A program made the translations under genes and the position numbers. Positions 11,599-56,101 of a DNA stretch of 64,000 bases are shown piece by piece. Numbering within the stretch: the first letter of the stretch is position 1; the number at the start of each line of letters is the position of its first letter. This DNA is from Tubulanus polymorphus (Eukaryota; Animalia; Nemertea), in the NCBI RefSeq assembly GCF_964204645.1, contig NC_134025.1, forward strand, positions 620,001 through 684,000, read 5' to 3'. The notes beneath the pieces were generated by a model. That model saw only the letters and a program-made list of their open reading frames with translations. It made no database searches and had not been told where the DNA came from.

Positions 11599-11874
11599 TG
11601 AAGGTTAATTTAGGTCAATTTAAAAGTGTTGAATTAGAGTGAATGTTGAGAGTGAGAGTCGTAAATTATTTGTATGTTTGTCGCGCGTGAGCTCCGTATT
11701 TATATACAAAACATTAACATCGTTTTATACAAGCACCACGGCGGGGTACTGGTGGTTAAATCACAGTCTGTACAGTCTACCGGGGGGTACTGGTGGTTAA
11801 ATCACGGTCTGTGGAGTACCGGCTACTGTACTGAATCAGGAAAATGAAGTCAGTAGTTTGATTGTATCGGATGT

Positions 11875-11993
11875 CACTGGTGGCTCCCTCTAGTGGTTAT
11901 TTTGGCACCACCACTGGCTCCCTCTATTGGTTTTATCAGTCACTGGTGGCTCCCTAGTGGTTATATTGGCTTCACTGGTGGCTCCCTCTACAG
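11875..11993. promoter_or_regulatory. Tandem array of four CTCF-like motifs (tggctccctctagtgg and variants)
   Basis: Reverse complement ccactagagggagcca fits the CTCF core CCAC(C/T)AG(A/G)(G/T)GGCGC; four copies at ~32-bp spacing. Confidence 0.55.
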
Positions 11994-12801: not shown

Positions 12802-12850
12802 TGATGATGATGATGATGACGATGACGACGATGATAATGATGATGATGAT
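12802..12850. repeat. (GAT/GAC)n microsatellite in the probable SINHCAF 3' UTR or downstream region
   Basis: Trinucleotide run. Confidence 0.9.
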
Positions 12851-13536
12851 TTAGCTCAATGCAAAGATAATTTATGTCTTCTGTGTTTATTACTAATATT
12901 TATTAATTTACGATAATTTCTTCTTAAAAAGCGTAAATGATAAGTTTGTATGATGTTTTCTGTAATAGGTGTTATCAGTGGTTTAATTTATTCATGATTT
13001 TATATAGCTGAATGCTGTAGATATAAACTCTGTCTGCTGTCTGTCAGTCAGTCAGTCTGTCTGGCGTTTAGTTAAATTATCTCTGTAGATTTAATAAGTT
13101 TCCAAAAAAGAACAATTTGCTGAAATGCAAATATGATAAAATAAAAGAAAAGCAATAAAGCAATGCTTCTCGCGTTGTAAGGGATATTTTCCCCTCTCCC
13201 CTCATATGTACATAGGGTCAAGCGGCCGATGTAACACACTTTATGGATGGCCCCTTTGTCTTTTATTTCAATTGAGAAAGAAAAAAAACTAAATTATTTT
13301 CGTAACTTGAAGAAAAATCCATCCATTGCAGCTAACATAATTCACGAATATTTGGCAGTTATTTCGATTCATGTAAAACAATGCGTTTCATTTGGTAGCT
13401 AAAGTAAAGTGTGATGGATGATACTGATAACTGGTATAAGTCGTGATCTGATCGCTCTGGTGTTAGATAGATCCGTGCCTGTTTGACATAGGCCACATTT
13501 GGGCAAGTTATCGCTAGAAAATGCTAACTGTTTCTG

Positions 13537-13645
13537 GGGCCCAATTTCACAAAAAGGATTAAGGCCTAAATCGATTTAAGATAAACTGAATTAATGAAGA
13601 AATTAAATCGATTTAAGAGTTAAACCTGTTTGTGAAACTGGGCCC
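13537..13645. mobile_element. MITE family B (Harbinger/Tourist-like); copies at ~21449-21568 and ~57234-57342
   Basis: TIRs gggcccaatttcacaaa ... tttgtgaaactgggccc, CTG flanks, shared internal aatcgatttaagataaactgaatt. Confidence 0.8.
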
Positions 13646-14360
13646 TGACTTCTCTCCTCACTTGCCACAGTAGTTTTGATAGTATTTTAGTAGAGTGGGT
13701 GTTTTCTATGTGAACACTCGGACTAAAGTTGACTCAGGTCAGGTGCGGCCAGTCTGACCCGGGCCAAATCAATCTCTGCGTGATCGCGGCTATAATCTTT
13801 GAAATTGTTACAGTTTAAGTATCAATAACTCAGGCTAAACTAAACTACACTACACTGTTATTAGGAGCAGATCTGATAATATTTAGTGCAGATTTAAAGT
13901 TTGTTATTGATAGAAACGAAGAGAAAGTTATTATTATATTGAGTCTATAAAGGTATATAGCAGAGTTTAATATTGTGATCTAGAGAGTAAACTGACAACA
14001 GTTCAGTCAGTTATAGATCGTTAAACTCTGTACTTCCGGGATTTCTGTTGTAAAAAGATTTGAAGAACACTATTTTACTGATGTCGGTTATATGTGTATA
14101 ATATTATATGAAAGTAAGTTATATCTCAATTATTGTAAATTGTATCGAATATATTTGATATTTATATGTGTACAAACATACAAAAATACAGTCGCACAAT
14201 CTGCAGCCCTTCGATTAGAAATATCTCTGGTGAAGTGCGGGAACTGATACGAAACATGGATGATCAGTTTTGAAAGTTCGCTAGTTGTTTTAGAAATGTG
14301 TTTGATGAAGTATGAAATAGCTGCAGATTGAAACTGTATGAAATGATCGGAGAGATTTAA

Positions 14361-18672: not shown

Positions 18673-21600
18673 ATGATGTCACCAGGCTGCTGGAAGTTGT
18701 TTCTTTCGAAAATCTGGTAAGTTTTTGAAACATCCGGATCCAGTTTCACAGTTTAGAATTATAGATTTAGCTCGTTAAAAAAATTAACTGATTCTAAACT
18801 CTCAAACTGTGGAACTTAGATCCACAGTTTGGTTATTTCGATTTGGAAAATACTTAACGAATATATCTCATACATCTTCGACATAGACATTCGTGTTTTC
18901 AATTCGAGCTTAACCGCTTTAAACTTAAACATTTTCATGAAACAGAGATGTCTGAATTTACTAGTAAGACATAAGTTTCGAAAAGTACGTTTAGTTTGCG
19001 CCGATCTGACAGAATGCTGGCACGTGCTTGAATCTACATTCGGATTTAATTTTAACATCGACAATTTCTAAAATAAGTTCAACCGCATAAATTTACATTC
19101 GAACTGGTAATTAATCGAGTTAATCCGATATCAATTATAAAACTGATCAATACGCGCATGCGTTGTTGAAGCGATGTTGATGTTGTAGTTTGGACAATCA
19201 GCTCATTCGTTATTTTAAACTCGATATGATAAAATGTTAAGTTACTGGTGAATAGGTAAATATCAGCAGGGCTTGCTTGGGATTGATGGTACAGTTTTGT
19301 CAGGTAAACTCAATCATTATTTCATCTTAATCATACTGATATATAGTGCTAATATGAAAGGGATGCGTATACCAGAAAATTACAGTTTTTTTCGATTAAA
19401 CTGTGAAAGAAAACTGTAATTTTCTGTGACATGTCTAATATTCTTATTTCACAAACTTTTCATCAAAGTTGTTATTTTTCCATTTTCCATTTTCGACTTC
19501 TAAACACTCAAAGTGTTTATCAAATTCAGCCAAGTTTGAAACTAGTTTTAGCAAGAATCGCGTAGAGTCTTCATCTATACAGGCTATAACCGCTGGACCT
19601 GGATCTACATAGGCCAATAGGAAGTGTGGGCCAAATAGGAAGAGGGGCATTTCTTGGACAAAGCAGCCATGACTGAACAATGGGGCTCAATCGCTGCTAG
19701 GAATCATTGAAATACATGCGAAAATATACACTTTATGAGAGGATGAATCGGTCACGTTTAAAGCTTTCTATCTTGACACAAAAGGAGGAATCTCCAATCC
19801 CTTAGATCCACCACATCATGAAACGAATTGTTTTGTTATATTTACAGTATGTACGCCAGTATATCAACGATCATTCTACTGTTAGTTACAGTAGAAGCTG
19901 AGAGATTATGCGGTAAACAGTTAGCCGATGTTTTAGATTTAATTTGTCATGATCGTGGATTTCATTGGGACGTCAGCAAAAAAGGTAAATTATTGCTTTA
20001 ACTAGCTTGCGTTATATATACCGGCATGTTTTAGTGTAGGAATTAGAAAAGTTACTAAAACTAAATTAAAAACTATTATCAATGACGATGTGGGCTGGTA
20101 AACCACGCTCTTCACTTCTGGACCAAGAGCGAAGCGCTGCAGGACTGCGTGACGTTTCGACGCGTTGATATAAAGAGAATTCCACAATAATAACGGAGAA
20201 ATATTTAGTCCGAAATGTTTCATTCAGCTAATTTAAAACTCAAAGAAACATTTTCGGACTTTACATCGTTATTATTGTGGGATTTTCTTTATATAAAAAA
20301 AAGCGGATATATTATCATTGGTTCAAAGAATACAGAATCTGAATCTGAATACAGAATCTGAATTTTGAATTTAAATTTGAAATTCTGGGTCCAGTTCCAC
20401 AGTTCGGAGTTAAGATTTGACCCTGAGTTAACTCATTGAAAATGAACTAATTTTAACTCCGAGTTAACTCTAACTCACAACTATGGAACTGGGTCCAGAA
20501 TGTTAAAATTCGGAGTTTCTATCATATACGTAACTATTTCGATCTTTTGGTGTTTTTGATTGCGGGACGCTAGTGTCAACAGTGCGACCTTTGTTAAACT
20601 TTGATATTTCTAATTTAGTCAAATTCCAATCGATTGATGTTGAAAAAATCTAGAAATAAGCAATGATTTGTGGTAAAATGTAACTGAATGGTTGTACAGA
20701 TGTAACCGTTATATTCAAATTTTGAATGGTTGTAACCGATTCGATTGAACTTTCCACCCGATTAATGACGTCATCCATTCATTCATACGATACCGTATTG
20801 AATTGAATGACTCGATGATTTAAATATATTTGTAGACTTTTACGCGACCCGACATCTGTAAATTATTGGCTACACCCAACATACATAAATCCGTTAAATC
20901 AGTTGATTTACCAAACGACAACAAATTCAAACGAAGCCAATTAATTATATAAGCGCTTGCGGATATGACGTCATATATAGACCATTGGCATTTCGGAGAT
21001 TTGCACAAAAATAACATAATATGATAGTCCTATATATAGGCCTATATAAAGATGGTTTAGTAATTACAGGCGCGGATCCAGGATTTTTTCAAGGAGGGGT
21101 TCATAAAGAATGTTTATGTTAAACCGCTGACTAAAATCTCTGATAGGGGGCCAATACGGCATATTGTTTGGCCAAACATAAGACGTTATGTTACCGATTA
21201 TGCAGAAGTACTGTCCGCCCGATTTGCCTTGAGCATATACATTCCTTCAAGATAACGATTTAAACATTTAAAACATTTTTGGTAGCTGAGCCCCCCCCCC
21301 CTGGATCCGCGCCTGAATTAGAAGAATTATAGAAATAGAAACAAATGTAGGATTTCGATCTATTCATCCATACTGCTATTTGCGTATGGATTATGATTCA
21401 TTAACAAAATGGTTGTAATGATTCATGAATTATCGTTTTCTAAGCTCCGGGTTCAGTTTCACAAAAAAAGATTAACTCTTCAATCGATTTAAGATGAATT
21501 AACTGAATTCATGGAGATTGAAAATCTGTTTAAAGGGTTAAATAAACCTTTTTGTGAATCTGGACCCAGAGGTGAATATAAAAAAGATAACTCTATCTAC

Positions 21601-23288
21601 TTAATCGTTGTAATTTTTCATTTTTGATCTTAAAATAGGGATTCATCCTTTTTATTTATTTAATTTCGTTTGATTTTAGTTTTTATTTGGTGTTCCTCGC
21701 AAACCCGTCACACCTGTCGGGAGCGAAACAGGTGGTTTTATTTTTATTTTTTGTTGTCATACTCTCTTCTTTTGAAATGAAAGTTTTTTTTTGTTTATGA
21801 TTTATTTTAGTTTGTAAATGTGTTTTTATATATTTCTGTGTATTCCTGCAGCTAGTGCCCCTGCTGTAATCAGTAAACGCCAGGCTGCATCATTTCTAAC
21901 CCGGAGAAGAAGAAGTGTGGTCGATGAGTGCTGCTTAAACGCTTGTACTTATGAGGTTTTAGAATCATATTGTGCAAGTCCTGCAGATTACGATTATAAA
22001 CTACAGATCGAGGATATTTTACCCAGACGATTGACTTTAAACGTATGTATTCTACTTGTCGATGGTTATAGACATGCTGGGGCCCAGGGGGCAGTTGCAT
22101 AGTCGTGGCTTAGACTTAAGACCAGTCTAAGACCAACTTAGTTCTATAGCCAATCTAACAACTTAAGACCAGTCTTAAGATTTAAGACCACCTTTAGACT
22201 TAAGTCACGACTGTGCAACTGGGCCCTGGTCCACAGTCCTGAGTTAAATCTAAGTTAACTTATTGAAAACTATTCAAACTTTAAAAGCAAAATTTAGCCA
22301 ACAACTGAGGAACTGGCCATGGGTTCTATGAGTTTTCTAACAAATGTTTATAGTTCAGAATTAGTAGCAGCAAATTTGGAGGAAAGTTCCAAAAAATGAT
22401 GCATCTTCAGGGAATAACGCAAACGCTAGCCCAAATCATCCTGGACACAAAACTCAGATCATCTGTAACCCTAACCCTAGGTGATTCCTAACCCTAGAAG
22501 GGTTTCGAACCTGCGACCTCCAATATACCAGACAGGCATGCTAACCACTAAACCATAGACCGATATACATTGTCATAAGTCGTCAGTTTGTCCGGTCAGT
22601 GTGGTGACCATTTGTCTGTGGTGACCAGTCAGGTGACTGGTGACCAGTCAGTGTGGTGGTGACTATTGCAGTTTTTATCAGGCCCATTGCCTGGAATTTT
22701 GATTTAGAAAAGGCAATCCTTCCCAACAAAAAGGCGAGCATCTTTCATAAACAAATTATAAAAAAAGGTTGAGATGCCATCACGTATTTTACTGCTTCCT
22801 ATATTTCAATGAACGATCTCCGTGACTCGACAGAGTTCTTCTCTTGCCTACGCGAATACATTTGTGTTTTTTGCGTATAACTTTCGAATATTCATTTTCA
22901 CAAACATCTTGCCTTTCAAGAATCGTTTGTTCTTATTGTTTCAGAGAATGTTTTGTTCTTATTGTTTCAGAGTACCGGTAACTTGCCGTCGGCTCCTGAA
23001 TCCGGGTACCTTCCTACTCGATCTCCACCCCAACCATCCATGGAACAAAATCCACATTCGACATTCGGAGTAGATAAAAACCAGGACGCTTTCTTCTACG
23101 TGGGTAAAACGAAACCGACGAATAAAAAACGGAATCATGATAATGATGACAATGAAAGATTGCGTTTACTACAGAAATTGAATTTACTTAGAATTTTGAG
23201 GCAAGACGAGTTTCGTAGTAAACAAAAGGCAGAAGTAAAAAGTATATCCGAAATTCTAGATGCGCTTATAGCATCGCTTTTCAAATAG
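18673..23288 (+). CDS. Insulin/IGF-family prepropeptide with long D/E-domain extension (IGF-like)
   Basis: Exons 18673-18716, 19848-19984, 21852-22042, 22971-23288 splice in frame. Signal peptide MMSPGCWKLFLSKICMYASISTIILLLVTVEA, B chain ERLCGKQLADVLDLICHDRGF, short C region with KK/KR/RRRR, A chain SVVDECCLNACTYEVLESYC (CC-x3-C-x8-C), then a ~128-aa extension. Confidence 0.88.
20169..20294. repeat. Fold-back inverted repeat (MITE-like) in intron 2 of the insulin-like gene
   Basis: atataaagagaattccacaataataacg...agtccgaaatgtttc pairs with gaaacattttcggact...cgttattattgtgggattttctttatat. Confidence 0.75.
20388..20495. mobile_element. MITE family A (~108 bp, palindromic, Harbinger/Tourist-like)
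   Basis: TIR ggtccagttccacagtt / aactatggaactgggtc, CWG flanks. More than 10 copies in the window (e.g. 15749, 18736, 24206, 33175, 33796, 39751, 40532, 51203). Confidence 0.85.
21067..21315. mobile_element. Non-autonomous DNA transposon with CAGG termini
   Basis: Perfect 16-bp TIR caggcgcggatccagg / cctggatccgcgcctg; aatta on both flanks. Confidence 0.85.
22088..22225. mobile_element. MITE family C copy
   Basis: cagttgcatagtcgtggctta ... taagtcacgactgtgcaactg TIRs; inverted homologue of 10991-11116. Confidence 0.8.
22400..22560 (-). mobile_element. tRNA-derived SINE-like element with TTAGGG repeats directly after the B box
   Basis: Minus strand gtctatggtttagtggttagcatgcctgtctggtatattggaggtcgcaggttcgaaaccc (A and B boxes) followed by tagggttaggg twice. 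Confidence 0.6.
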
Positions 23289-24941
23289 AACAAATTCAAA
23301 ATTCATTTCACTTCAATCCTCTTTAGTTGATGATTAAACCTTTTTTCGAAATGTTATCTAAAAATAAAGTTGGTTAGTTATTATGAAATTAAACGATTAT
23401 AATTAATGATGTGATCGAAAAACATACTGTAAGATTTTACCGAAGCGAAAGAAATCTTCATCTAAACTGGATCTGCGGACCAAAACTGACACTTTGAGTT
23501 TCGAAATAAAAACCCATGTTTTCATTTATCACGCAATTTTCTTTAGTTTGTAAGTTGAAACTGTACTCAGAATAGTATACGTAAAATGATAATCCATTGT
23601 CCCAATTTGACATTTCACATGAGAGGGGATGATAAATGTCAACTGATTCCATCTCCGCTGAAATGGCATTGAAATAAACGCGCCTTTCATTGACCACCTG
23701 CGTCAATACGGCGTAAGACGATAGATTCGAATCCCACTTATCTATTTACATCGAGCGGCGCGTCATTGACTTGTAAAGTCATAATGGCTTTATTGAAGTA
23801 TATATATTGAACCAGATAGTGAACACGACAGGAGGGAGAACTGTCGAAATAACCAATGACAATTCTTTCACTAAAATGTTTTCACACAGATTTTAAAAAC
23901 ATCGCAAAATAATGCGAATACAATTCTGTTGTTTCTTGAATTATCGGCTAATTCGATCAATAATCACTGGTCGAAAAAGAGTCTCATGTACATCAGACAT
24001 GGGATACCCAAAGATTTTTCAGGCACTATGGCCTCCACTTGTGAAAATAAAAACAAACTAATAAAAACATACAAATATATTTAGTTTTATTTACAAGGTA
24101 TCATCAGGAGATTACAAATATATAATATATTCACATCTAACAAATGAATACATTTTAGGACACTTTCACTTCACAACACTTAACATACATGTTTAACAGG
24201 ATACAGGACCCAGTTCCAGAGTTCTGTGCTAAGAGTTAACCAATTGAAAATCAACTAGTTTTATTTCTGAGTTAACTCACAACTGTGGAACTGGATCCAG
24301 ATCCACAGTTCTGAGTTAAAATCTTACCTATACATCTTAACTACAAACTAGCAAAATCATAATAATGTTATTGAAGTCGCTGAACTAGTTTTTGATTCCT
24401 AATCTATATTTCCAATTCATCTGAATGTGTGTAAGTCATCATTTCTATGATAAGTCATCAACTTAGTGATTGTCACAAATGCAATGACTTTGGCAAGTTT
24501 GACTGTGTACATGATGAGACCTGATTTTAAGAGTATCTCTCAGAACTGCGGAACCAGATTCTAGACATTCCTGTTATCAATGTTGAAATAATTCTCAGCT
24601 ACAGCTCACTACACAGATTAGAGGATTCACACCAGAACATTTCATTATCCAAAAATACATTAATAAAAAACTGAGATATTTCAGAGACAAACTGCGTAGA
24701 GTCATGTTATAATATATAATATCACAATAACATGGAAAAACGAGTGTGAAATGTTTCCTTGAGGAATATCATATTCGGTATTCCTCAAGGTGTATATAGT
24801 AAACAAAGATGACTATTAGGAGACAGTTGGAACACTGAGTCTATAAACTAATATCAGCTAAAAGAAACATTTCAGACTCTTTTCATTTTAAGTGAGGGAT
24901 TTTATATCATATTTACGACACAGACTCTCAGTGAGTGACTA

Positions 24942-32800: not shown

Positions 32801-35800
32801 CTGGTAAGTGTTTGTGTTATACAATCATTCAGTCAGTGTTTAGTGTTTATTCAGTCAGTCAGTTAAGGGACATTGTAATTGTTATATAGGGTGAATATGG
32901 TTTACCTGAAGCTGTGGCTGAAATTAAAGAACATAAAATGAATGTTAGCATCAGAGACAGGTAAGAAACACAACCCGGTTCCACAGTTCCCGGTTCCACA
33001 GTTCCCGGTTCCACAGTTCCCGGTTCCACAGTTCCCGGTTAAAGATTTTACTTGAGTTAAACAATTGAGACTCTATTCTACAGTTGCGAGTCTAGAGTTA
33101 AGTCATTGAAAATGGACTGATTACAACTGAAGCAACTATGGCATCAGATAAGAATTTAAATTTGTTAACTTCTAGGACCCAGTTCCACATTTCTTGGTTC
33201 AATTAGTTCATTTCTAATGTTTAATCTTAACTCACAACTGTGGAATAGTTCCACAGTGTTTTTAACCCTTATATCGACCTATGAATCCATTGTAACGTTC
33301 ACTAAATTGTTTTTTCCAGACAAATAGAAGATTTGACTCAACAAGTGAATAAATGTGAAATGCAGATAAATGATTTATACGATGAGAACGAGGAACTGAG
33401 GGCGCGTCTCGGTCTCGATCCTAAAGAACCGATCGATTTAGAGAAAGTTCGACATTCGAAAAATTCACAACATCAACAAGACCGCGCGTTAAATATGGTG
33501 CTTCAGAAAGAAGTGGAACGTTTAGAGGACGAGAGAATTAATCATAAAAAAACAATCAGACGATTAGCGCAACAATTAGGACAGAAGTATGTCACACGTA
33601 TTCTACTATCGGTAAACTCCGCTCAAGTCGGACCTCTTTCAATCAGAGAAAATCTGTCCTGTCTGAAAAAATCTGACTTGAGCAGAGTCTATTGTGTATT
33701 TATCAGTGTACAGTCTACCTTGATATTATACCTCATCTGATAAATCAACCAATATCACCCCCATCTAATGCCAGGTTTTTTCTGAGAAACATCTGGGTCC
33801 AGTTCCACAGTTGTGAGTTAAGATTTGACTCTGAGTTAACTCATTGAAAATGAACTAACTTTAACTCAGAGTTAATCTAACTCACAACTGTGGAACTGGG
33901 TCCTGAATATAATATCTTAACTATTTAAATAAATCCCGATATACTCCCTCCCATACTCTATACAGCCAAAATCATAAATCACTGATTCGGGTGCAGTTTA
34001 TCAGGGGTTGACTCTTTATACAAGTAACACTTTCTGATGTTTAGAACCTGTTTATTTCATTCGCTTCTTTTTAACTGAATGAAATATTGAATTTCAGGGC
34101 CGTGAATTTAGGAATCACTCACGATGATTTAATGATAGCAGATGGATTCTCAGACGATAAAATTCAAGCAGTCAGCGTTGCTCAGGTTGCCGGAGCAGCG
34201 CCATCTATGGGTTTAATGCGTAAAGATTTAGAATACGACGAACTCAAAATCAGAGTAAATAATGAAATTCTAATCGTGTGAATTTTACTGAATGACGATT
34301 GCGTAAAATTACGATTTTTTTAAATATTTTAGAATCAGCAACTGGAATCAGAATTGGATAAAAACAGTAAATTGTACGACGTGATGAGACAAGAGAATTC
34401 AGAATTCCGTTTAAAATGCACCGAATACGAGGATCAAAATAAAAACTTGGAGAAAGGAATGAGAGAAATATTAGAAAATCTGAAAGAGAATAATCGTTCT
34501 GAGGGCGGTACGAGCGGTCCTCAGATAATTGAGTGTCCAGCGTTAGAGAAAATATTAGCTGTAAGTTATTTCTCTGTGAAATCTTTGAAAAAGGAACTGA
34601 AATCATTGATTTGTATTAAATTTGAGTTTAGACAAATGGAATGTAATTCACATTCTGTTGTAAAATGTTTCTCAGATTTGTGTTCGAGAGGAGGCTCTCT
34701 ACTGTATTACACATAATCCCTGACATTATCGGGTAACAGTCCCTGAAAATGGTCCATTATTCCTGATTATACGTTCCTATTTCATCATACTGATAATTGA
34801 TTGACCTCTTTGTGAAACTAGTCTAATGATCGCCAGCACTTTTGGGTATTGTCAGCGCTGAAAGGGTCTTGTGTCACTGATAAGAAAAACTGATTTTGTC
34901 TTATTTGCTTTCATAGTTTCCTAAAAAGTTTGCCTTGTTCAGAAATTCATAGATTGCATTGGTAGTTCAGTTTTATATGAATATGTTGTAGGCAATGGAA
35001 GCTAAGAGTTACACAGGACAATACGATACCGGTTTACATCTGAAAGCTCGTTTAGATAATCTAGAAGGAAGAAATGATGAATTACGCAGAGAATTACGAG
35101 AAGCAAGAGTCGAATGTACGAAAACTAAAATGGAATCGGAGAAAAGTCAAGAAAAGGTAAAATGACTTACAATAATTTTACAGTTGAACATCATTACAAT
35201 AAACTTCAGGGCACCAGAAAATCTGGTAGAATTATTAGATTTTATTTATTTGCGACAAAATCCCAGGTTTGTAAAAACTGATCAATCGTCATAATGAGGA
35301 GGTTCCACTTTACATATTGAAGCAAAATAGATACAATATGTATGTAATGCTAATATTTTGTTACTTTGTAATCCGTTTATCGAAAATGTTTTTATAGTTG
35401 ACTAAATATGAAGAAGATTTGAAAGCATTGCGTGAATTAGGAGCTGGATCAATGACTGTACACGCTGTTCCGTTACCTGATAATATGGCTATCACTAGTG
35501 CTGAGGTTATTGCCAGTTTAAACGAACATTTAGTTCAAGTTTTACAGGTAATAAGTGAATTCATTTCTTCAAGCTGTTGTTGTTGTTGTTGTACGCGACA
35601 TCAGGAAATTTAAAATCAATATTTCATTGCTGTTGTTCAGGAAATGTCTCTGAAAGAAGAAACGATGAAGAAAATGGAAGCAGCTTTAGAAAATTACAAG
35701 CGTAAATTTGCGTTAGTTCGTCATCAACAAGGGCTGCTTTATAACGACTACATCACTGAAAAACAGGTCATTCATTACTTATAACTATCATTTTGGTTTT

Positions 35801-38800: not shown

Positions 38801-41800
38801 GTTGGTTTTTACTGAATTTTTGCGTTGATTGAAATTTCAGCTGAAGTTCCAGGAAAGCGTAGTTAAAGATCATGAAAATGCTATTGTGAGATTGGAAGAG
38901 GAAAATGTTCGTTTGGCCAAGGTAAATAATAGTAAAACAAGGTTTCATTGTGTCAGGTTAAATTTTCCTCAGTTCAGTTCCAATGTTATAACTATTGAGT
39001 AAAATTTGTACTATGGCTATAAGACTGGTCTCTAAATTCTCTAATTTGTAAGTGAATCTGTTTCAGGATTATGAAGAAAGACAACTACAGTGGGAGCAGA
39101 GAGAGGTGGAATTGGAGAGAATTATAGCTAATATGGAACAGACTCAAGCTGAAATAGCAGGAGCAGCAGCTGAGTTTGAATCAGCTGCGGGATGTTTACC
39201 GGATCCAACTCTTTCACTCCCTAATCAACTCGATCAGGCTATACTAACTATCAAACGCAATGTGAAGACAATTCTAGAAGCTCAATCTGAATCTAAAGTT
39301 ATGAGAAAGGTTTGTTCTATATTCCTACGACAATTACAGGGGTCTGAGTACTTAGAAGAATAGTGATGATATGTAAAACATTCTAGAATATTTTGATCCA
39401 CTTTTTATACGATAAACCGCAGAGCTCAGAATGTCCTTTGCGATTTTAATAACAGGAGTTTGGTGAATGATTTTCTATCCGTATTTCCCCACAGAAATCC
39501 ACAGATTTAGAAGCTAAAGTGAAAGAATTGGATAAAGCGTTGACGACTAAAGATCGAGTAATAGCTGAATTGAGATTGAGAATGCCAGCGACTCCGGGAA
39601 GAGACGAGGTTATAATGAAAGCAATGCACAACGCTGAAAAACAAGTCACTCAGGAGGACGAATATGAGGCTCATCAGGCTTTGAAGATAGCTCAGTCAAC
39701 TGTTGGCAGTTTACAGGTAAAATATCAATTAGTCATTAAGATATTCTGAATTCAGTTCCACAGTTGTGACTTAGAGTTAACTCTGAACTCAGGATCCAGT
39801 TCCACTGTGAGTTATGGTTAACTCTTGAATTGGGATAAGTTTATTTTCATGAGTTGAGTCGAATCTGATAACAGTGGAACCAGGATACATTTCAACAGTG
39901 TTCTTTTGGCCGTTGTAGAAATATTTACATGAGTGAAAAATACTAATGACCAAAGTTTCCTTTGAAATCATCTCTTTGTTTGCGACAAATTAAATACAAG
40001 AATGTAGACATTTAGAAATTGCTGGAATGAATTTGTTGAAGGAATGAATTTATTGATGATTGTTTAATTGAAGGCTCGAATCGCCCAAAAAGATGAAACG
40101 ATCCAAAAATATCAAGATCTATTAAAACAAGCTCGTGAGGATATTCAAGAAATGAGCAGAAGACATTCCGAAGAGATGAATCTCATGCATAGTAAAGTAC
40201 AAACTAAAGCCGACCACGCGTTCAGTAAATTCAAACAGGTCGCCGTAGATTTAATCAATAAACCAGGAATCGATCAACCATCCAATCGTCAGTTAGCCAG
40301 ATTGAATGAACTGGAGGATATGGTCGCGGAGCAGGATAATTCGTTATCGGCTCTTACCGAGAAATTACGACAATCGAGATTAGAAACAGACTCATGGAAG
40401 GCGAAGCTCGATCAGATGATGAAATCAATGACTAGAGATAAAGACAAGTAAGGAACTGATTTCAAATATACCCAGTAGCTAGCTGCTGAAATCTATGATT
40501 TATTAGTGAATTATTTGTACCTCTGTCCTCAGGATCCACTTGTCTTCCACAGTCCTAGCCAATGTTTGACTCTAGTCAGAATTTGTTCATTCCAATGTTT
40601 TAATTCAAATCTTACCCATAACCTGTAGAACTGGATCCTGTGTTCTCCAGTCAAAATCAACAATAGTCTCTTAGTAAGGTAGTAAGTGCTGTAGGTGATT
40701 GCAGCAATTTTCAATATTTTGAGACCACCAACTAAAAGCCTCAAGAATGAATGCAGCACCTCTTAAAATTTAGCAAACACAGAATCGCTGTAGTTTGATA
40801 TTTTGCTTGATTTTAGTTTGTTGGCCGAACAAGCATCGGAGAAAGCAAAACTAAACGGAGTGATCGGACAAAGAGAGCAAGAAATCATCGGTTTGAACAA
40901 GAAAATCGACGGAATAAATATTGAATTAAAGAATCAAAAAGAAGCGAACGCTCGAGCTCCGACTTCAACGATGAAAAACCTCGTGGAAAAACTGAAAAAT
41001 CAGTTGTCAATGAAAGAGAAACAACATAAGGTAAAATGTCGAAAATTTTGAAAGCAAGATCTTATTTTATTCATGAAACTACCATTCTTTTAGCCATAGT
41101 ACAAATTTTACTCAATAGTTATAACATTGGAACTGAACTGAGGAAAATTTAACCTGACACTATGCAACCTTGTTTTACTATTATTTACTTTGGCCAAACG
41201 AACAATCTCACAATAGCATTTTCATGATTTTTAACTATGCTTTCCTGGAACTTCAGCTGAAATTTCAATCAATACAAATTCAGTCAAAACCATTTTGAAA
41301 ACAAGATCTTATTTTATTCGTTAAACTACCAGTGAAGCCCTTGAGGCACATATAAGAATTGCTTTAGTTTGTATTGCATTCTCTGTGTTCTGATTTTCAG
41401 GCATTAAGTAAAGCACTGATGGATCTAAGAGCTGATATGGTAACACAAGCTGAAGTAGCGGTCAAACAAACGGCTGAAGAAACTGCTGCAGAACAAAATG
41501 TACAGAAACTCGTGAATAAACATACTAAAGAATTACAGGTACAAATTACTAGTTACAATCCAGGTCTATAGTTCAATTCAATCCCTTAAATCAATCCATT
41601 TTCAATGAGTCAATTTTTAACTCACATCTGTGCAACTGGGTTCTCGAGTGATGAATGAAAGATTAGTTGATAAAATTGCTATTTGTTTAATTTTTCAGGA
41701 TGAGAACGAAGAATTAAGAGGACAAATCACTCGACATAAGAAAGAATTGAAGAAACGTAAAGATCAAGAGAATCTATTAACATCAGAAATGGAAGAGATT

Positions 41801-47908: not shown

Positions 47909-47928
47909 AGAAATTTCTGGAAGCGTCT
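47909..47928 (+). promoter_or_regulatory. Heat shock element upstream of HSP90
   Basis: aGAAa-tTTCt-gGAAg-cgTCt: alternating nGAAn pentamers ~230 nt upstream of the putative TSS. Confidence 0.8.
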
Positions 47929-48159: not shown

Positions 48160-48170
48160 CTTCCTTTTCC
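48160..48170 (+). promoter_or_regulatory. Pyrimidine tract (5'TOP/TCT-like) at the probable HSP90 transcription start
   Basis: cttccttttcc, ~110 nt before the first donor (48273). Confidence 0.45.
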
Positions 48171-48826
48171 GGTTGAACACGGCGTGGTTTCACATCAGAA
48201 AACTACGACGCTCCGATTAGGACGACGAAATAAGGGCTTCTCTCCTAACCGATCAACTTAACCGAATACATGGTAAGTTTTCATAAATTCACATTAATCT
48301 TAAAACTTTATTTCAGTCTTCTGTAACTGGCATTCGATTTCACAATTTTTATTTCAATTTGGCCGGGCGCCGCGGGCCTCTTTTTGAGTCTTCAAATTTT
48401 ATTTCCACTTTCACTTTATTCAATGTTTTCACAGTTTCTACCTTTACCTTTTTGTCTCTTGTATAGAGGAAAGAACTTTGTATTTTTGAATTGCCTTTAA
48501 ATCGAATGAAAGGGGAAAATATTTCATAAAAAAGTATCATTATCACTTTAGTTCTATTGTCTGCTTTTGGCTTTGTGGTGCCGGTGGATGCAATGCACAA
48601 AAGGGAATCTAACCCTGCTAAATTAATACCACCACTCAGATTTTGAAGGTAATTCCAAACCCCAACCGCTGGATGGTTTGTGGACAGTACCCACCTTTAA
48701 ATATCAATTGATTTTACTCCTCAGATTTCAAATTGCAATAAGGCCTTATGCGCTAAATTCTTGATAATGACCAAATTAAGTGTGAACATTGTTAACACAT
48801 GATGTTGTAATTTCATTATATTCCAG

Positions 48827-51800
48827 ATGCCAGAACCAACTGTAGAAAACATGGAAGAAACTGAAGTAGAAACCTTTGCGTTTCAAGCTGAGATCGCTCA
48901 ATTAATGAGTTTGATCATCAACACATTTTACTCAAACAAAGAAATTTTCCTGCGAGAATTGATTTCAAATTCTTCCGATGCTTTGGATAAAATCCGCTAC
49001 CAGAGTTTGACCGACCCGGCAGTTCTGGACAGCGGCAAAGATCTGAAGATCGATATCATCCCCGACCCGGCCAACAATGTCCTGACTATCGAGGATTCTG
49101 GTATCGGAATGACGAAGGCTGATTTAGTGAACAATCTCGGAACGATCGCTAAATCTGGAACTAAAGCTTTCATGGAGGCTTTACAGGTAAATAACCCCTA
49201 ATTCATTAGGGGATCACCACATTCCCTGATCTATGAAAGAACAATGAAGTTTGGGTTTATTTCGAGAAAAGATGAAATAATTTGCTATTCTTATTGGCAA
49301 TGCAGTGGCTGCCCGATATCAGAGGCAATTAGTCAATCTCAAAATTATTTAAAATATCCGCTTAGCGTTGGTCTTGGATGTAATAGTCTCATAACTGGAT
49401 TCAATAACTAACTTCTAATTTTCATGATTAATTGAAATGAGAGTTTTCTGTTTTCTCTTCATATCTATTCTAAAATCATGGTTCCTACAGATCAGGGTAA
49501 TTGGGAAAAACTTGGGAATTTGAAAAATCGTCCTCAAATCAGGGAAATACTTGGGAAATTCATTACATTTTACATATATTGCATTTGCCAAGGGCAACTT
49601 TCTTCAGCGATTTTCCCTTGAAAATCACATTCATCGACCAGTCACCACTAAAATAACATGACGATATGTGTTCATTTCCATTTGGGAAAATTGAAAAATC
49701 ACCCATGAAGTACTTGGGAATTTTGAATTCATACAACTGTGGGAACCATGTAAAATGTATATGATGTATAATTTCAGTCTGGAGTTGACATATCTATGAT
49801 TGGTCAATTTGGTGTTGGTTTCTACTCTGCGTATCTCGTCGCTGATCGTGTAACAGTTCACACTAAACACAACGACGACGAACAGTACGTGTGGGAGTCC
49901 TCGGCCGGTGGATCGTTCACAGTCCGTAACGCTAACGCCTCGGACCCCGTCATCAAACGAGGAACGAGGATCATTCTTCACATCAAAGAGGATCAAAACG
50001 AATACATCGAGGAGAAACGCGTTAAGGAAGTCGTGAAGAAACACAGTCAATTCATCGGATACCCGATCACGCTGTTCGTCGAGAAAGAACGAGAAAAAGA
50101 GATCAGCGACGACGAAGAAGAGGAAGAAAAAGAAGAAAAGAAAGAGGGAGAGGAGGAAGAAGAGAAGGTAAAATTGAATCTCGTTTCCGTGGGAAATATT
50201 GAGAAAGTTATTGTCGCAAATGATGTTGAATTCTTTTCCCAGCTTATCCATATATGCTGATACAGCGCTAACTAAAGCCAATCATCTGATGCGACCAAAC
50301 TATAAACTTTCTGAATCCTGGCAGCTCTACAGTTCACAGTCAACTTCTGACTTCACAATTTGGAAGTGAAATGTCTCAGAATTGTTAAACTCTGTCCCAG
50401 ATTCAATGAGTGTGTAGTGTGTGTAAGTAATGCTTGGATGTATTTTAAGGCTGATGAAGACAAACCAAAGATAGAAGATCTGGATGAAGATGAGGACGCC
50501 GATAAGAAAACTGATAAGAAAAAGAAGAAGATTAAGGAGAAGTACATCGACTCTGAAGAGCTGAATAAAACTAAACCTCTGTGGACACGTAATCCTGACG
50601 ATATCACACAGGAAGAATACGGAGAGTTCTATAAATCATTGACCAACGATTGGGAAGAACATTTAGCTGTCAAGGTAGATATTTACGTTCTGGAAATAGG
50701 AACCAGTCCAACCTAGTTTAATCCTAATGATTACTTATTCTTAGCTAATTCCAATAAGGAATACAAATTAGGGGTCAGAAATTGAGATGACTTGAGTTGG
50801 CCGATTAATTGGCCACTTAACTGAATCAAACTGTATTTGATTCTTTTATAAGTTGCAAATGATGTTGAATTCTTTTCCCAGCTTATCCATAGATGCTGAT
50901 ACCGTGCTAACTAAGCCAATCATCTGATGCAACTTGAACATGATTATTTGGTGGTTCATCTATTTGAAATTGATGAAGTAAAATGATTTGAAATGTTTTT
51001 TTTTGCAGCATTTCTCAGTTGAAGGTCAACTGGAATTCCGTGCTCTGTTATTCATCCCAAAACGAGCTCCGTTCGATTTGTTTGAAAGCAAAAAGAAACG
51101 AAACAACATCAAACTGTACGTGAGACGTGTATTTATCATGGATAACTGTGAAGATCTTATTCCTGAATATCTCAGTAAGTTCTAACTATCCAACAAACTA
51201 CTGGACCCAGTTCCACAGTTCTGGGTTAAAGTGAGTTCATTTTCAGTGAGTTAAATCTTAACTCACAACTGTGGAACTGGACCCCGTCTTTTATGATTCC
51301 TAATTCACTATTAATCAATGTTTGAATATCATTTTTCTACTGAGGTTCATGTGACCTTTAAAGTTACTTGTCATAAATATAAATGAAGAGTCTCTTGATC
51401 GCAAATGATGTTGAATTCTTTTCCCAGCTTATCCATATATGCTGATACAGCGCTAACTAAAGCCAATTATCTGATGCAGTAATTCATTAGACTCTTACAA
51501 TTCAATTAAAAACTGATGTTCATTTCACCTCGTCAGGTGTCTGATTAGTGCCTGATTTTACAGATAGATGTCGCTAGTTGTACGCTCTAAATGATAAGTC
51601 TATTTTGCGTTACAGATTTCATCAAGGGTGTAGTTGACTCCGAAGATTTACCGTTAAACATTTCTCGTGAAATGTTGCAACAAAGCAAAATCCTGAAAGT
51701 CATCCGTAAAAATCTCGTGAAGAAGTGCATGGAATTGATCGAAAGCATCGCCGAAGATAAAGACAACTTTGCCAAGTTCTACGAGCATTTCGCCAAGAAC

Positions 51801-53375
51801 ATGAAACTCGGAATTCACGAGGATACGACCAACAGGAAGAAACTCGCTGATTTCCTCAGATATTATTCCTCTCAATCCGGAGACGAAATGACTTCATTGA
51901 AGGATTACGTGTCGAGAATGAAGGAGAACCAGAAATCCATCTATTTCATCACCGGTAAATATCTCATAAATTTATCTCTAGTTTCACTGATACAGGTATC
52001 AATCTGCTGCCTCGAATCGGGACCTCTGTCAAAGTCTTCTGTTGTTGATTTACAATTAAAAATTTCTCGGATGAAGTTCTGAACATATGTAATGCGTGAA
52101 TTCTTAAAAGTTGATCTAATATTGAATATTTGACGTGTAAGCAGATTGATACTTGAATTTGTAGATTTCTAGAGTCAAAATAATTCATTCTTTTCGCAAA
52201 TGATGTTGAATTCTTTTCCCAGCTTATCCATATATGCTGATACAGCGCTAACTAAAGCCAATCATCTGATGCAATGATCTGCGGTATAAATGACTGTATA
52301 AACTGAGTGTAGATTTGATCTGAATGCAGTGTTATTTAATTTCCGACAGGTGAAAGCCGTGAACACGTACAGAATTCAGCGTTTGTTGAAGGAGTAAAGA
52401 AGAGAGGATTTGAAGTGTTGTACATGATCGATCCTATCGACGAATACGCTACTCAACAATTGAAAGAATACGACGGTAAAACGCTCGTTTCCGTGACGAA
52501 AGAAGGATTAGAATTACCCGAGGACGAGGAAGAGAAGAAGAAGTTCGAAGAACAGAAAGCTCATTACGAGGGTCTGTGCAAAGTGATGAAGGAGATTCTC
52601 GATAAGAAAGTCGAAAAGGTAAGAAATCATCCCTTCATTACTTCACTTTAGGTCATTTAATTATCATTAATATGAAACTTAGGGTTTGAAAGAGTTACCT
52701 ATTAGAACTAATCAGTCTTGAGTCGCAAATGATGTTGAATTCTTTTCCCAGCTTATCCATATATGCTGATACAGCGCTAACTAAAGCCAATCATCTGATG
52801 CAGTAATTAAGACTGTTAGTTCTGAATATTGTCTTCAGTTAAATTAATCAAACATTCACTCTATCATTAAGGTGGGGTCTGTTATGTCATTGTAGTTAGT
52901 TTGAACTGTAATTAATTTTGTGTCTAATTTCTAGGTTGTTGTATCAAACCGTTTGATCACGTCGCCGTGTTGTATTGTCACAAGTCAATACGGTTGGTCC
53001 GCGAACATGGAACGCATCATGAAAGCACAAGCTCTCCGCGATACGTCCACGATGGGTTACATGGCCGCCAAGAAACACCTCGAAGTCAACCCCGATCATT
53101 CCATCGTGAAAACGCTTCGCGAGAAAGCCGAAACCGATAAAAACGATAAATCAGTTAAAGACTTAGTAATGTTATTATTCGAAACATCTCTTCTGTCGTC
53201 GGGATTTACTCTCGAGGAACCGCAGATTCACGCCGATAGAATTCATCGCATGATTAAACTAGGTTTAGGAGTCGAAGAGGACGAGATCGAAACCACGGAG
53301 ACGGCCGATGAATCGATGCCACCCCTGGAAGGTGAGGACGGAGACGATAGCACGCGTATGGAGGAAATCGATTAA
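48827..53375 (+). CDS. HSP90: Cytosolic HSP90 (Hsp83/HSP90A)
   Basis: [75 protein letters not shown]-terminal MEEID. Exons 48827-49186, 49778-50167, 50450-50674, 51009-51174, 51616-51954, 52350-52618, 52935-53375. A lone ATG (48270-72) ends exon 1. Confidence 0.99.
49477..49750. mobile_element. hAT-like MITE with 6-bp TSD in HSP90 intron 2
   Basis: TIR catggttcctaca / tgtgggaaccatg, with taaaat on both flanks. Confidence 0.75.
50213..50295 (+). ncRNA. Box C/D snoRNA, copy 1 (HSP90 intron)
   Basis: C box ATGATGT, internal CTGA, D box CTGA, terminal stem gtcgca/tgcgac. Confidence 0.88.
50850..50935 (+). ncRNA. Box C/D snoRNA, copy 2
   Basis: Same core with a few substitutions; terminal stem aagttgca/tgcaactt differs in sequence from copy 1 but still pairs. 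Confidence 0.88.
51401..51477 (+). ncRNA. Box C/D snoRNA, copy 3
   Basis: Same core with one C>T before the D box; external stem aagagtct/agactctt. Confidence 0.88.
52196..52272 (+). ncRNA. Box C/D snoRNA, copy 4
   Basis: Core identical to copy 1; D box ~80 nt from the 3' splice site. Confidence 0.88.
52725..52801 (+). ncRNA. Box C/D snoRNA, copy 5
   Basis: Core identical to copy 1; external stem agaactaatcagtctt/aagactgttagttct. Confidence 0.88.
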
Positions 53376-53892: not shown

Positions 53893-54074
53893 GGTGGCAG
53901 CACTGTACGGTCCCCTATAGGAATTTCTGTGAACTAATTAACGAGGACGGTTAGTGTATAGACTGGTTACCGGTCTCTAAGATATTGAATGGGACAGGCA
54001 ACCAGTCTAGGTTAGAGTACGGAAATAAAATTAGTTCACAGAAATTCCGCTTGGGGACCGTACAGTGCTGCCAC
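53893..54074. mobile_element. Fold-back MITE with ~45-bp arms, containing a nested TAG...CTA mini-element (53959-54009)
   Basis: gtggcagcactgtacggtcccc..ggaatttctgtgaactaatt pairs with aattagttcacagaaattcc..ggggaccgtacagtgctgccac; inner tagactggttacc/ggcaaccagtcta. Confidence 0.8.
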
Positions 54075-54153
54075 AACTTTGATTGAAAAACAGATATTAA
54101 AATAGGATGTCCCCAGGGTTACTACGGTTAATGGCGATTCTGTTCTCTCGGTG

Positions 54154-54878
54154 AATGCTGTAACCTAGGCATCACGAGATTACTATCTGTGGATGCTGTA
54201 ACCTAGGCATCACGAGATTACTATCTGTGGATGCTGTAACCTAGGCATCACGAGATTACTATCTGTGTGATGCTGTAACCTAGGCATCACGAGATTACTA
54301 CTATCGGTGGATGCTGTAACCTAGGCATCACGAGATTACTATCGGTGGATGCTGTAACCTAGGCATCACGAGATTACTATCTGTGGATGCTGTTACCTAG
54401 AGGCATCACGAGATTACTATCTGTGGATGCTGTTACCTAGAGGCATCACGAGATTACTATCTGTGGATGCTGTAACCTAGGCATCACGAGATTACTATCT
54501 GTGGATGCTGTAACCTAGGCATCACAAGATTACTATCGGTGGATGCTGTAACCTAGGCATCACGAGATTACTACTATCGGTGGATGCTGTAACCTAGGCA
54601 TCACGAGATTACTATCGGTGGATGCTGTAACCTAGGCATCACGAGATTACTATCTGTGGATGCTGTAACCTAGGCATCACGAGATTACTATCAGTGGATG
54701 CTGTAACCTAGGCATCGCGAGATTACTATCTGTGGATGCTGTAACCTAGGAATCGCGAGATTACTATCTGTGGATGCTGTAACCTAGGCATCACGAGATT
54801 ACTATCTGTGGATGCTGTAACCTAGGCATCACGAGATTACTATCGGTGGATGCTGTAACCTAGGCATCACGAGACTAC
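54154..54878. repeat. 38-bp minisatellite, ~19 copies
   Basis: Unit gatgctgtaacctaggcatcacgagattactatctgtg, with no spacers. Confidence 0.97.
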
Positions 54879-56101
54879 CTACTATTGTATCCTCCTATTC
54901 TATCCTTTTTAGGGGTTATCCCCCAGAAAACCAACTACATTCTCAGGATGTTGTATTTTAATTTTCCAGACAGACGTTCCGAAATACTACTTCAAAATAA
55001 ATCTTGCGTTCAATCCTGTTGAGACAAGAGATTTCCATTACAGCGACCAAAAGACAAACAACAAGTCAGATTTCTGCATTGATATTTGAATATATTTGTG
55101 ACTAATGAATATAGTTCACGCAGACCATCATCATACACAGCATCAGTCAGTCATACGGAATCAAGAGGCTCAGCCTCAAACAATAGTCCATTCGTTAAAG
55201 AATTTTGTGAGATACAGACCTAGAATTAATGTTTATTTAGGAGACAGTTAAAGTATCTGTGTAATTATTTCATATCACAGTTAACATACTGAAACAATTG
55301 AACATTAAATAAGAGTAGTGGACACAAGGGCTCGTTGTAGTTTAAGCTTAAAGTTTGAACCTCAGAAAATGATGGCAGGGTTCGTACTGTTTTATAGTCT
55401 GATTTTCCGTAAACTTGTCCAGGCTAAATATCCAAATATCTTTATCTACTGAATGAGCTTATACGTAATAAGGCAGAATGGAAAGTTTTTTAATTCAAAT
55501 ACTACCAGGCCTACGGTACAACAACCACCAAGAATTATCCCCACATTTCTAAAATATCATAGCATCAGAACAAACACTTAAAATTTCTTAACTTTATTCA
55601 GGACCTGTACGAACCCTGGGAGAAGCAGTTCTTTCTTATAGAGATAACACTGAGTTATACGGCTTATTTTCAAGATAAACCGAGTAGATTTGACTAGGCC
55701 TTCATCACTATACGCAGATGATAGATAATGGATAGTAAAGACAATTGCCATTTGAGCAGTCGTGACTTAGCTCCAAAATTAGACTGGTCTGCAGTTTTCA
55801 AGTCATGACTGTATAACTGGCCTCAGAATTTGAAATTCAGTGAACCTCAGTAGATATTTTGGCACGGTTATATTTGTTCTCATGAAATAGTTTCACAATC
55901 ATTAATAAGACTGAAATGATGAAGGTTTATTCGAGCGTTGACTTCATCATTGATACCATAAAGTATTCATTTAATTATTGATGAATTTATTCAATTTTTG
56001 TGAACCTTAAACTAAAATAAATGACACCAAACAGAATCTTAACAGTCAAACTCGGCTTAAGTCGTCATCTCTAGTTTTGAGTCGCAATTTGTATGTCTTA
56101 T

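What the first reader, a model, noticed from the sequence alone, without database searches (positions are those of the whole stretch)
50213..52801. Five-copy box C/D snoRNA array, one per intron, in the HSP90 gene
Seen: a ~77-nt unit (gcaaATGATGTtgaattcttttcccagcttatccatatatgCTGAtacagcgctaactaaagccaatcatCTGAtgc) occurs once in each of HSP90 introns 3-7, in sense orientation. Copies 1, 4 and 5 are identical while the surrounding introns are unrelated, and the terminal stems differ in sequence yet still pair (gtcgca/tgcgac vs aagttgca/tgcaactt). Known: this is the classic intron-encoded C/D snoRNA layout, and vertebrate HSPA8 hosts U14 copies in the same way. I do not recognise this RNA as U14 or another named family, and do not know HSP90 as a snoRNA host. 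Inference: a dosage-amplified, possibly heat-inducible snoRNA.
Basis: partly seen in the sequence, partly recalled or inferred. Interest (0 to 1): 0.88.

Follow-up and report, generated by a model that had tools for sequence, protein, structure and literature searches.

The report
Five SNORD12-type snoRNAs in HSP90 introns
An animal HSP90 chaperone gene carries five near-identical small RNA genes, one in each of five spliced introns; they likely belong to a long-known family and are predicted to guide methylation of one conserved ribosomal RNA base, so only their home in HSP90 seems undescribed.

Summary
Five sense copies of a 76-77-nt box C/D unit lie one per intron in introns 3-7 of an 8-exon HSP90 gene. 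Its 730-aa product is identical to a record named Tubulanus polymorphus HSP90-beta-like, and spliced contigs skip the introns. The RNA is very likely not new. The top three Rfam matches, all below their curated cut-offs, are SNORD12, plant snoZ103 and Dictyostelium DdR2. The D' guide pairs 10 bp with LSU helix 73 in 4 of 4 proxy rRNAs and places +5 on the G that is Gm3878 in human, Gm2483 in S. pombe and G2395 in yeast. It shares 11 nt with the Neurospora snR190 homologue. So it is most likely a divergent SNORD12/snR107/snR190-family member. Two to four copies are usual for this family. Heat induction is untested; one 3-unit HSE lies upstream. I found no paper naming HSP90 as a snoRNA host. 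The scan noted multi-copy snR190-family loci and one-per-intron arrays on other DNA, none in HSP90. No RNA-level evidence for the snoRNA itself and no other animal's HSP90 locus could be examined. Verdict: real, known family, new host gene; modest interest.

The parts
48270..53375 (+). Cytosolic HSP90 host gene, CDS in 8 exons: 48270-48272, 48827-49186, 49778-50167, 50450-50674, 51009-51174, 51616-51954, 52350-52618, 52935-53375 (730 aa, ends MEEID)
   Evidence: Spliced translation identical to P0014, named HSP90-beta-like [Tubulanus polymorphus]; Pfam HSP90/HATPase; contigs of runs X4 and X6 (one sample) list 6 of 7 introns as GT..AG joints, and intron 3 is bridged in the piece table
50216..50292 (+). 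snoRNA copy 1 (intron 3); 6-bp terminal stem 50213-50218 / 50290-50295
   Evidence: Rfam SNORD12 27.1 bits (cut-off 43), snoZ103 24.2 (44), DdR2 19.6 (80)
50855..50930 (+). snoRNA copy 2 (intron 4), most divergent; 8-bp terminal stem; box D ends 81 nt before the 3' splice site
   Evidence: snoZ103 25.4 bits
51401..51477 (+). snoRNA copy 3 (intron 5); external stem 51386-51393 / 51489-51496
   Evidence: flank duplex reached by 27 of 500 shuffles
52196..52272 (+). snoRNA copy 4 (intron 6); 3-bp stem only; box D ends 80 nt before the 3' splice site
52725..52801 (+). snoRNA copy 5 (intron 7); long external stem about 52700-52721 / 52807-52828
   Evidence: -26.7 kcal/mol, 0 of 500 shuffles
50220..50226 (+). 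Box C of copy 1 (AUGAUGU; last base departs from RUGAUGA); same in all five copies
50231..50240 (+). D' guide (ASE1) UUCUUUUCCC, invariant in all five copies; predicted to pair with LSU helix 73
   Evidence: 10 bp with one G-U, +3..+12, best site in 4 of 4 proxy rRNAs; 8 of 1000 shuffled guides do as well
50243..50246 (+). Box D' (CUUA, degenerate)
   Evidence: aligned with D' of SNORD12, snoZ103 and DdR2
50254..50260 (+). Box C' (AUGCUGA, degenerate)
50275..50285 (+). Second antisense element (ASE2-like) with the AAGCCA core shared with snoZ103 and DdR2; also an 8-bp match to a second conserved LSU site (weak)
50286..50289 (+). Box D (CUGA), same in all five copies
47910..47922 (+). One three-unit heat-shock-element-like site about 240 nt upstream of the presumed start (function untested)
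   Evidence: 4 matches in the window against 1.43 expected, 7 of 100 shuffles reach 4
48160..48170 (+). Pyrimidine tract that could be a 5'TOP/TCT-type start (inferred; start not mapped)
   Evidence: sequence; the spliced contig of X4 begins at 48178, but contigs cannot show a start

Best explanation
The five repeats are intron-borne box C/D snoRNA genes inside a spliced HSP90 gene, likely this animal's copies of the SNORD12 / snR107 / snR190 family, predicted to guide 2'-O-methylation of one G in large-subunit rRNA helix 73. Shown: the five copies, their boxes, one copy per intron, the splicing of the host, and the guide's fit to proxy rRNAs. Inferred from established snoRNA biology: the RNA is co-transcribed from the HSP90 promoter, released by splicing, debranching and trimming, and assembled with 15.5K/Snu13, NOP56, NOP58 and fibrillarin. 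A terminal or external intronic stem closes each copy. The D' guide pairs with helix 73 and sets fibrillarin on the third G of the GGGG run (human Gm3878/3899). The AAGCCA element likely gives extra base-pairing or the pre-60S chaperone role described for snR107 ASE2 and snR190 box B. HSP90 most likely serves as a strong, broadly expressed host; the copies likely arose by local duplication and are kept alike by selection and/or gene conversion.
For: (1) Of 4227 Rfam families, the three best by bit score on copy 1 are SNORD12 (E 0.00098), snoZ103 (E 0.01) and DdR2, and all three consensus lines carry the helix-73 guide and the GCCA element in the same order. (2) The D' guide's best site in 4 of 4 proxy rRNA sets is helix 73, 10 bp with one G-U; 8 of 1000 shuffled guides match it. 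(3) The +5 base is the G marked Gm in human and Xenopus 28S; the site is listed for fly, human, Arabidopsis, Xenopus and Dictyostelium, and as predicted in yeast; snR107 is needed for it in S. pombe. (4) Neurospora CD16, listed as the snR190/HBII-99 homologue, shares 11 consecutive guide bases including the same G-U wobble. (5) The region between boxes C and D aligns to plant Z103 better than shuffles (0, 1 and 0 of 1000); the middle part, which was not in my search pattern, does too (9 and 5 of 1000). (6) A model of the five copies ranks plant Z103 genes as 7 of its 8 non-self hits in 221 kb. (7) None of the 5 differences between copies falls in a box or in the D' guide. (8) Only 13 and 5 contigs of runs X1 and X3 lie on copy 1, and both loose ends listed are flanks of copies 2 and 4; neighbouring repeats reach depths above 9,000.
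Against: All Rfam scores are far below the curated cut-offs (27.1 of 43, 25.4 of 44, 19.6 of 80), and a gathering-level scan finds nothing. Profiles built from plant Z103 alone are not significant on the window: nhmmer E 0.47-2.9; covariance model E 0.076-5.5 for 3 of 5 copies, with an unrelated stretch at 22007-22063 ranked first. The reciprocal hits are weak (E about 0.02), and the plant loci were fetched with a pattern drawn partly from this unit. The guide is short (10 bp, one G-U), boxes C, C' and D' each depart from consensus, and yeast snR190 does not methylate its predicted site. The organism's own 28S was not available; the four rRNAs are eukaryotic contaminants of bacterial assemblies, of unknown species.
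Confidence: 0.75

Rival explanations
1. Same family, but it works like budding-yeast snR190: a pre-60S RNA chaperone or placeholder that pairs with helix 73 and a second rRNA site without methylating.
For: Degenerate D' (CUUA) and C' (AUGCUGA) lose one sheared pair of the K-loop (consensus pairing from my own knowledge). snR190 pairs but does not methylate G2395. The second element is conserved.
Against: The site is methylated in fly, human, Xenopus, Arabidopsis, Dictyostelium and S. pombe. Divergent C'/D' motifs are often active. S. pombe snR107 uses a CCUA D' box.
Confidence: 0.12
2. A dual guide: besides the helix-73 G, the D-box guide directs a second, lineage-specific methylation at the first U of the conserved GGAUUGGCUCU stretch (human 28S U2873, old numbering).
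For: 8 Watson-Crick pairs at +3..+10 in 4 of 4 proxy rRNAs. Copy 3's single change keeps pairing as G-U. Neurospora CD40 has a 10-nt complement to the same U in front of its box D, which the authors did not list (my reading).
Against: 28 of 1000 shuffled guides, and 44 of 1024 variants that keep the family core, do as well. The AAGCCAA core is also in Dictyostelium DdR2, so most of the match is inherited. The site is not methylated in the six-species table, in the human/Xenopus map or among S. pombe rows 1991-1993. The vertebrate SNORD12 D guide also pairs with a site that is not methylated.
Confidence: 0.06
3. An unrelated new C/D family that resembles SNORD12 by chance and acts on another target, such as the 9-bp site near the 5' end of the LSU rRNA, an snRNA or an mRNA.
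For: Sub-threshold Rfam scores. A 9-bp alternative site exists in 4 of 4 rRNAs, perfect in 2 of them.
Against: Three independently built families with the same guide rank first. Element order and the +5 register are kept, and the Neurospora homologue shares the wobble that creates the alternative match. snRNAs and mRNAs were not searched.
Confidence: 0.04
4. A small mobile repeat or dead snoRNA copies that landed in the introns.
For: The same introns do hold real interspersed repeats. No RNA evidence for the unit.
Against: 5 of 5 copies are sense, one per intron, with intact boxes; no copy elsewhere in 64 kb; few contigs lie on the unit and none shows a foreign flank; copies carry their own closing stems.
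Confidence: 0.03

Closest known systems
Vertebrate SNORD12/12B/12C (HBII-99, U106; Rfam RF00581), guide for 28S Gm3878/3899
   Same: Box layout, D' guide to helix 73, +5 register, GCCA element before box D, several copies in consecutive introns (human 3, chicken 4)
   Different: Host is a protein-coding HSP90 gene rather than the lncRNA ZFAS1; five copies; D' is CUUA; 27.1 bits against a cut-off of 43
S. pombe snR107, S. cerevisiae snR190, Neurospora CD16
   Same: Two antisense elements in the same places; CD16 shares 11 consecutive guide bases including the G-U wobble
   Different: snR107 and snR190 lie next to U14 and are longer; snR190 does not methylate. No U14 or other Rfam family reaches its cut-off in this window. 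The domain-I pairing of ASE2 could not be tested
Plant snoZ103 (Rfam RF00149) and Dictyostelium DdR2 (RF01569)
   Same: Same guide core, AG before D' (Z103), similar element after C' (Z103), AAGCCA(A) before box D; Z103 is also multi-copy
   Different: The Z103 genes fetched lie in tandem clusters, with no HSP90 match in their loci, and carry an extra hairpin. That DdR2 is the CD2/3 guide of Gm2661 is my assumption
Drosophila snoRNA:Me28S-G2703a-c (CD53)
   Same: Three genes for the same site; the two rows seen are in one host
   Different: Host is the non-coding Uhg5; sequences not compared
U14 (SNORD14) in introns of hsc70/HSPA8
   Same: Several copies of one C/D snoRNA in introns of a cytosolic chaperone gene
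   Different: Different snoRNA family, target and chaperone gene

Membership tests
Intron-encoded box C/D snoRNA | Box C and box D at the ends, closed by a terminal or external stem | tested here: met
   AUGAUGU and CUGA in 5 of 5; 6-8-bp stems in copies 1-2, external stems in 3 and 5, weak in 4
Intron-encoded box C/D snoRNA | Sense orientation inside a spliced intron, one per intron | tested here: met
Intron-encoded box C/D snoRNA | Accumulates as a discrete RNA bound by fibrillarin/NOP56/NOP58/15.5K | not testable with these tools
   needs small-RNA-seq, northern or RIP
SNORD12 / snR107 / snR190 family | D' guide complementary to LSU helix 73 with +5 on the Gm3878/G2395-equivalent | tested here: met
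   10 bp, one G-U, in 4 of 4 proxy rRNAs; site identity. The organism's own rRNA was not available
SNORD12 / snR107 / snR190 family | Second conserved antisense element (GCCA core) upstream of box D | tested here: met
   aligned in SNORD12, snoZ103 and DdR2 and present in Neurospora CD16
SNORD12 / snR107 / snR190 family | ASE2 / box B pairs with LSU domain I | tested here: inconclusive
   The domain-I stretch varies among the proxy rRNAs and was not among the best duplexes; own 28S needed
Rfam RF00581 (SNORD12) as curated | Score at or above the gathering threshold of 43 bits | tested here: not met
   27.1, 21.3 and 20.9 bits for 3 of 5 copies. It is therefore not filed as a formal RF00581 member but as a likely orthologue of the wider family
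Rfam RF00149 (snoZ103) as curated | Score at or above 44 bits | tested here: not met
   19.3-25.4 bits for 4 of 5 copies
SNORD12 / snR107 / snR190 family | Directs 2'-O-methylation of the target G | not testable with these tools
   needs RiboMethSeq with knock-down
U14 / SNORD14 | Rfam U14 match with the 18S antisense domains | tested here: not met
   no U14 match among 18 hits up to E 10 or at gathering level
Interspersed repeat (MITE/SINE) | Many dispersed copies in either orientation | tested here: not met
   5 copies only in 64 kb, all sense; few contigs and no foreign flank, unlike the repeat at 51195-51292. Whole genome not held
Heat-inducible snoRNA | RNA level rises on heat shock | not testable with these tools
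   only an HSE-like site upstream

The most novel reading that the evidence does not exclude
This lineage has put all of its SNORD12/snR190-type pre-60S snoRNA under the HSP90 heat-shock promoter, in five copies, so that stress raises both the chaperone that assembles snoRNPs (HSP90/R2TP) and a guide that folds and methylates the root helix of the peptidyl-transferase domain, perhaps with a second, newly gained methylation target. With U14 in hsc70, the ancient fungal snR190-U14 pair would then be split over the two main cytosolic chaperone genes and still be co-regulated.
Probability: 0.1. Interest if true: 0.6.

Novelty: new member of a known kind. Interest (0 to 1): 0.28.

Why it matters
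As it stands, it is an annotation gain. It likely supplies a ribbon-worm member of a eukaryote-wide snoRNA family that Rfam cut-offs miss, and adds HSP90 to the list of snoRNA hosts. That fits the model in which snoRNAs drift among broadly expressed genes (PMC3511168, passages). It would matter more if the HSP90 location proved conserved across spiralians or made the snoRNA stress-responsive. Then the link between chaperone induction and rRNA modification could be tested on one promoter.

Tried and rejected
No whole genome is held, so genome-wide copy number, own 28S and the U14 location could not be read. Rfam at gathering level gave 0 hits in 64 kb. No RNA holder was listed by the run search; nothing from runs X5 and X6 was laid on copy 1; neither is evidence on expression. 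Contig depth on the unit (up to 200 against 32-40 on flanks in X1) fits about five copies, but the tool warns that depth is no copy number. Viral contigs gave 0 hits for the rRNA motif and for the snoRNA pattern. The single metagenome scan gave 32 loci and no HSP90-hosted locus (one weak tblastn hit, 31% identity over 71 aa). I ran 17 of the 32 through Rfam: 9 carried snoZ103, 8 did not; further loci are near-duplicates of the 9. Plant-only profiles were not significant on the window. My recalled idea that the D-box guide aims at the U34/snR62 site was wrong: that site has another context. The D' scan was one base off and was redone; its D' rows are not used. No consistent rRNA partner was found for the element after C'. 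Cognate flank pairing was best in 5 of 5 rows but only 3 of 5 columns of the cross-copy matrix. Earlier-finding look-ups by sequence, place and relatives returned nothing relevant. PMC5122169 held none of the family names searched.
Full report
Observation. The region holds five copies of a 76-77-nt unit on the + strand at 50216-50292, 50855-50930, 51401-51477, 52196-52272 and 52725-52801. Copies 1, 4 and 5 are identical, copy 3 differs at one base, and copy 2 has three substitutions and one deletion. Similarity stops at the unit's edges. A degenerate pattern finds these 5 against 0.00 expected in 100 shuffles, and blastn finds no other copy in the window.

Host gene. Eight exons splice to a 730-aa protein identical to P0014, which a source names 'heat shock protein HSP 90-beta-like [Tubulanus polymorphus]'. 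That this is a ribbon worm (nemertean) is my own knowledge. Contigs of runs X4 and X6 (one sample, library type not on record) list 6 of the 7 introns as GT..AG joints, and one contig bridges intron 3 in the piece table. Each unit lies alone in introns 3-7; box D ends 160, 81, 141, 80 and 136 nt before the 3' splice site. The neighbours look like CEP290 upstream and WDR20 downstream; these names are my reading of ORF translations, not a search result.

Anatomy. Every copy has box C (AUGAUGU), a D' guide UUCUUUUCCC, D' (CUUA), C' (AUGCUGA), an AAGCCAA element and box D (CUGA). None of the five differences between copies lies in a box or in the D' guide. Copies 1 and 2 close with 6- and 8-bp terminal stems that differ by a C-G/T-A double change. 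Copies 3-5 have only 3 bp next to the boxes. Copy 5 has a long external stem and copy 3 an 8-bp one. Flank duplexes were reached by 10, 25, 27, 89 and 0 of 500 shuffles for copies 1-5. Flanking intronic stems are known to replace a missing terminal stem (PMC10557570, passage).

Family. No Rfam family reaches its cut-off. Below it, the best three by score on copy 1 are vertebrate SNORD12 (27.1 bits), plant snoZ103 (24.2) and Dictyostelium DdR2 (19.6); the next C/D families score 19.5 or less and do not share the guide. The three consensus lines share the guide, its distance to D' and the GCCA element. Overlapping hits of one clan are hidden by the tool, so the absence of snR190 or snR107 rows says nothing. 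For a target test I used four eukaryotic rRNA loci found as contaminants in bacterial assemblies: 4 of the 24 fetched, chosen for long LSU cover, three of them confirmed by Rfam. The D' guide's best site in all four is helix 73: 10 bp, one G-U, +3..+12, with +5 on the third G; 8 of 1000 shuffled guides do as well. That G is marked Gm in human and Xenopus 28S (PMC6984369, supplement part 3). It is listed for fly, human, Arabidopsis, Xenopus and Dictyostelium and as predicted in yeast (PMC11014333, supplement Table S4 part). S. pombe snR107, budding-yeast snR190 and human SNORD12/B/C are described as orthologues with two antisense elements; snR107 is needed for Gm2483 and its ASE2 for 60S biogenesis (PMC11971394, passages and supplement rows). 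snR190 does not methylate and acts as a chaperone (PMC8536666, passages). Neurospora CD16, the listed snR190/HBII-99 homologue, shares 11 consecutive guide bases and the wobble (PMC2780460, passages and supplements 1 and 4). Extra base-pairing next to the target is reported for snR190 and HBII-99 (PMC3116282, passages).

Relatives. The metagenome scan gave 32 loci; of the 17 run through Rfam, 9 held snoZ103 genes, often in tandem, and none was an HSP90 locus. Against plant Z103, the box-to-box interior of copies 1-3 scored above 1000, 999 and 1000 of 1000 shuffles (6 of 16 plant sequences used). The middle part, outside the search pattern, was reached by 9 and 5 of 1000 shuffles. A model of the five copies hit plant Z103 genes as 7 of 8 non-self matches, at E about 0.02. 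Against this, plant-only profiles were not significant on the window and ranked an unrelated stretch at about 22010 first. The family call therefore rests on several moderate, agreeing signals and not on one strong score.

Second target. The D-box guide pairs 8 bp with another conserved LSU stretch in 4 of 4 rRNAs, with +5 on the U at human position 2873. Neurospora CD40 shows a 10-nt complement to the same U (my reading). But 28 of 1000 shuffles and 44 of 1024 core-keeping variants do as well, the core is shared with DdR2, and the site is absent from the methylation tables seen. I keep it as a low-odds lead.

Mechanism. Most likely the snoRNAs ride on the HSP90 pre-mRNA, are freed by splicing and trimming, assemble with the core C/D proteins and guide Gm in helix 73, with the second element helping pairing or folding. 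Position, boxes, host splicing and guide fit are shown; expression, protein binding, methylation and gene conversion are inferred. Several copies are usual for the family: human 3, Xenopus 3, fly 3, chicken 4 in introns 1-4 of one transcript (PMC2653536, table passage). snoRNAs move among broadly expressed hosts (PMC3511168, passages). A pyrimidine tract at 48160 could be a 5'TOP-type start, as in many hosts (PMC7277114, passages). One HSE-like site lies at 47910-47922 (4 in the window against 1.43 expected). snoRNA levels often do not follow their host, and heat shock tends to inhibit splicing (recalled), so heat induction is unproven.

Novelty. I found no report of HSP90 as a snoRNA host in seven searches, of which I saw the listings, nor in the fly and Xenopus supplements searched for Hsp83 or HSP. 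The library lacks most subscription papers, and I did not read the 1782-host list in the supplement of PMC3511168, which may bear on this. PMC8817022 was seen as one table passage and PMC5122169 as a search with no hits. Earlier notes of this scan describe multi-copy snR190-family loci and a one-per-intron U14 array on other DNA, none in HSP90; they are unchecked.

Verdict. A real array and a likely new, divergent member of a known snoRNA family in a known kind of arrangement, with an apparently undescribed host. Interest 0.28.

Noticed in passing
window 51195-51292: MITE-like inverted repeat in intron 5, just upstream of copy 3; related pieces at about 20390-20490, 24200-24320, 33020-33250, 33790-33900 and 39750-39780; contig depth above 30,000 in run X1
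   Followed up: partly
window 49480-49740: Another high-depth repeat (9,000-14,000 in X1) in intron 2, single in this window
   Followed up: partly
window 54105-54951: 38-bp minisatellite, about 18 units, downstream of HSP90; gives weak mir-217 matches that look spurious
   Followed up: no
window 53894-54074: 46-nt inverted repeat, 93% complementary, 89 nt apart, downstream of the gene
   Followed up: no
window 22007-22063: Top but non-significant hit of both plant Z103 profiles (E about 0.05); no clear box C or D seen, probably chance
   Followed up: partly
window 55296-55342: Sub-threshold Rfam SNORD75 match (22.4 bits, cut-off 50, E 0.027)
   Followed up: no
window 48270-48272 and 53358-53375: The first exon ends in an ATG that gives an MM start, and the protein ends MEEID rather than the usual MEEVD (usual form recalled)
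   Followed up: no
PMC2780460 supplement 1, Nc CD40: Unlisted 10-nt complement in front of box D to a conserved LSU stretch; a possible unreported fungal methylation site
   Followed up: partly
L026, L040, L044, L053: Plant snoZ103 in tandem clusters of 3-5; its guide fits helix 73, while the cross-species table lists Arabidopsis Gm2396 as 'snoRNA not found'
   Followed up: no
L001-L024: At least 24 stretches in bacterial or archaeal assemblies carry a eukaryote-type LSU rRNA motif; three were confirmed as eukaryotic rDNA, two with group I introns
   Followed up: partly
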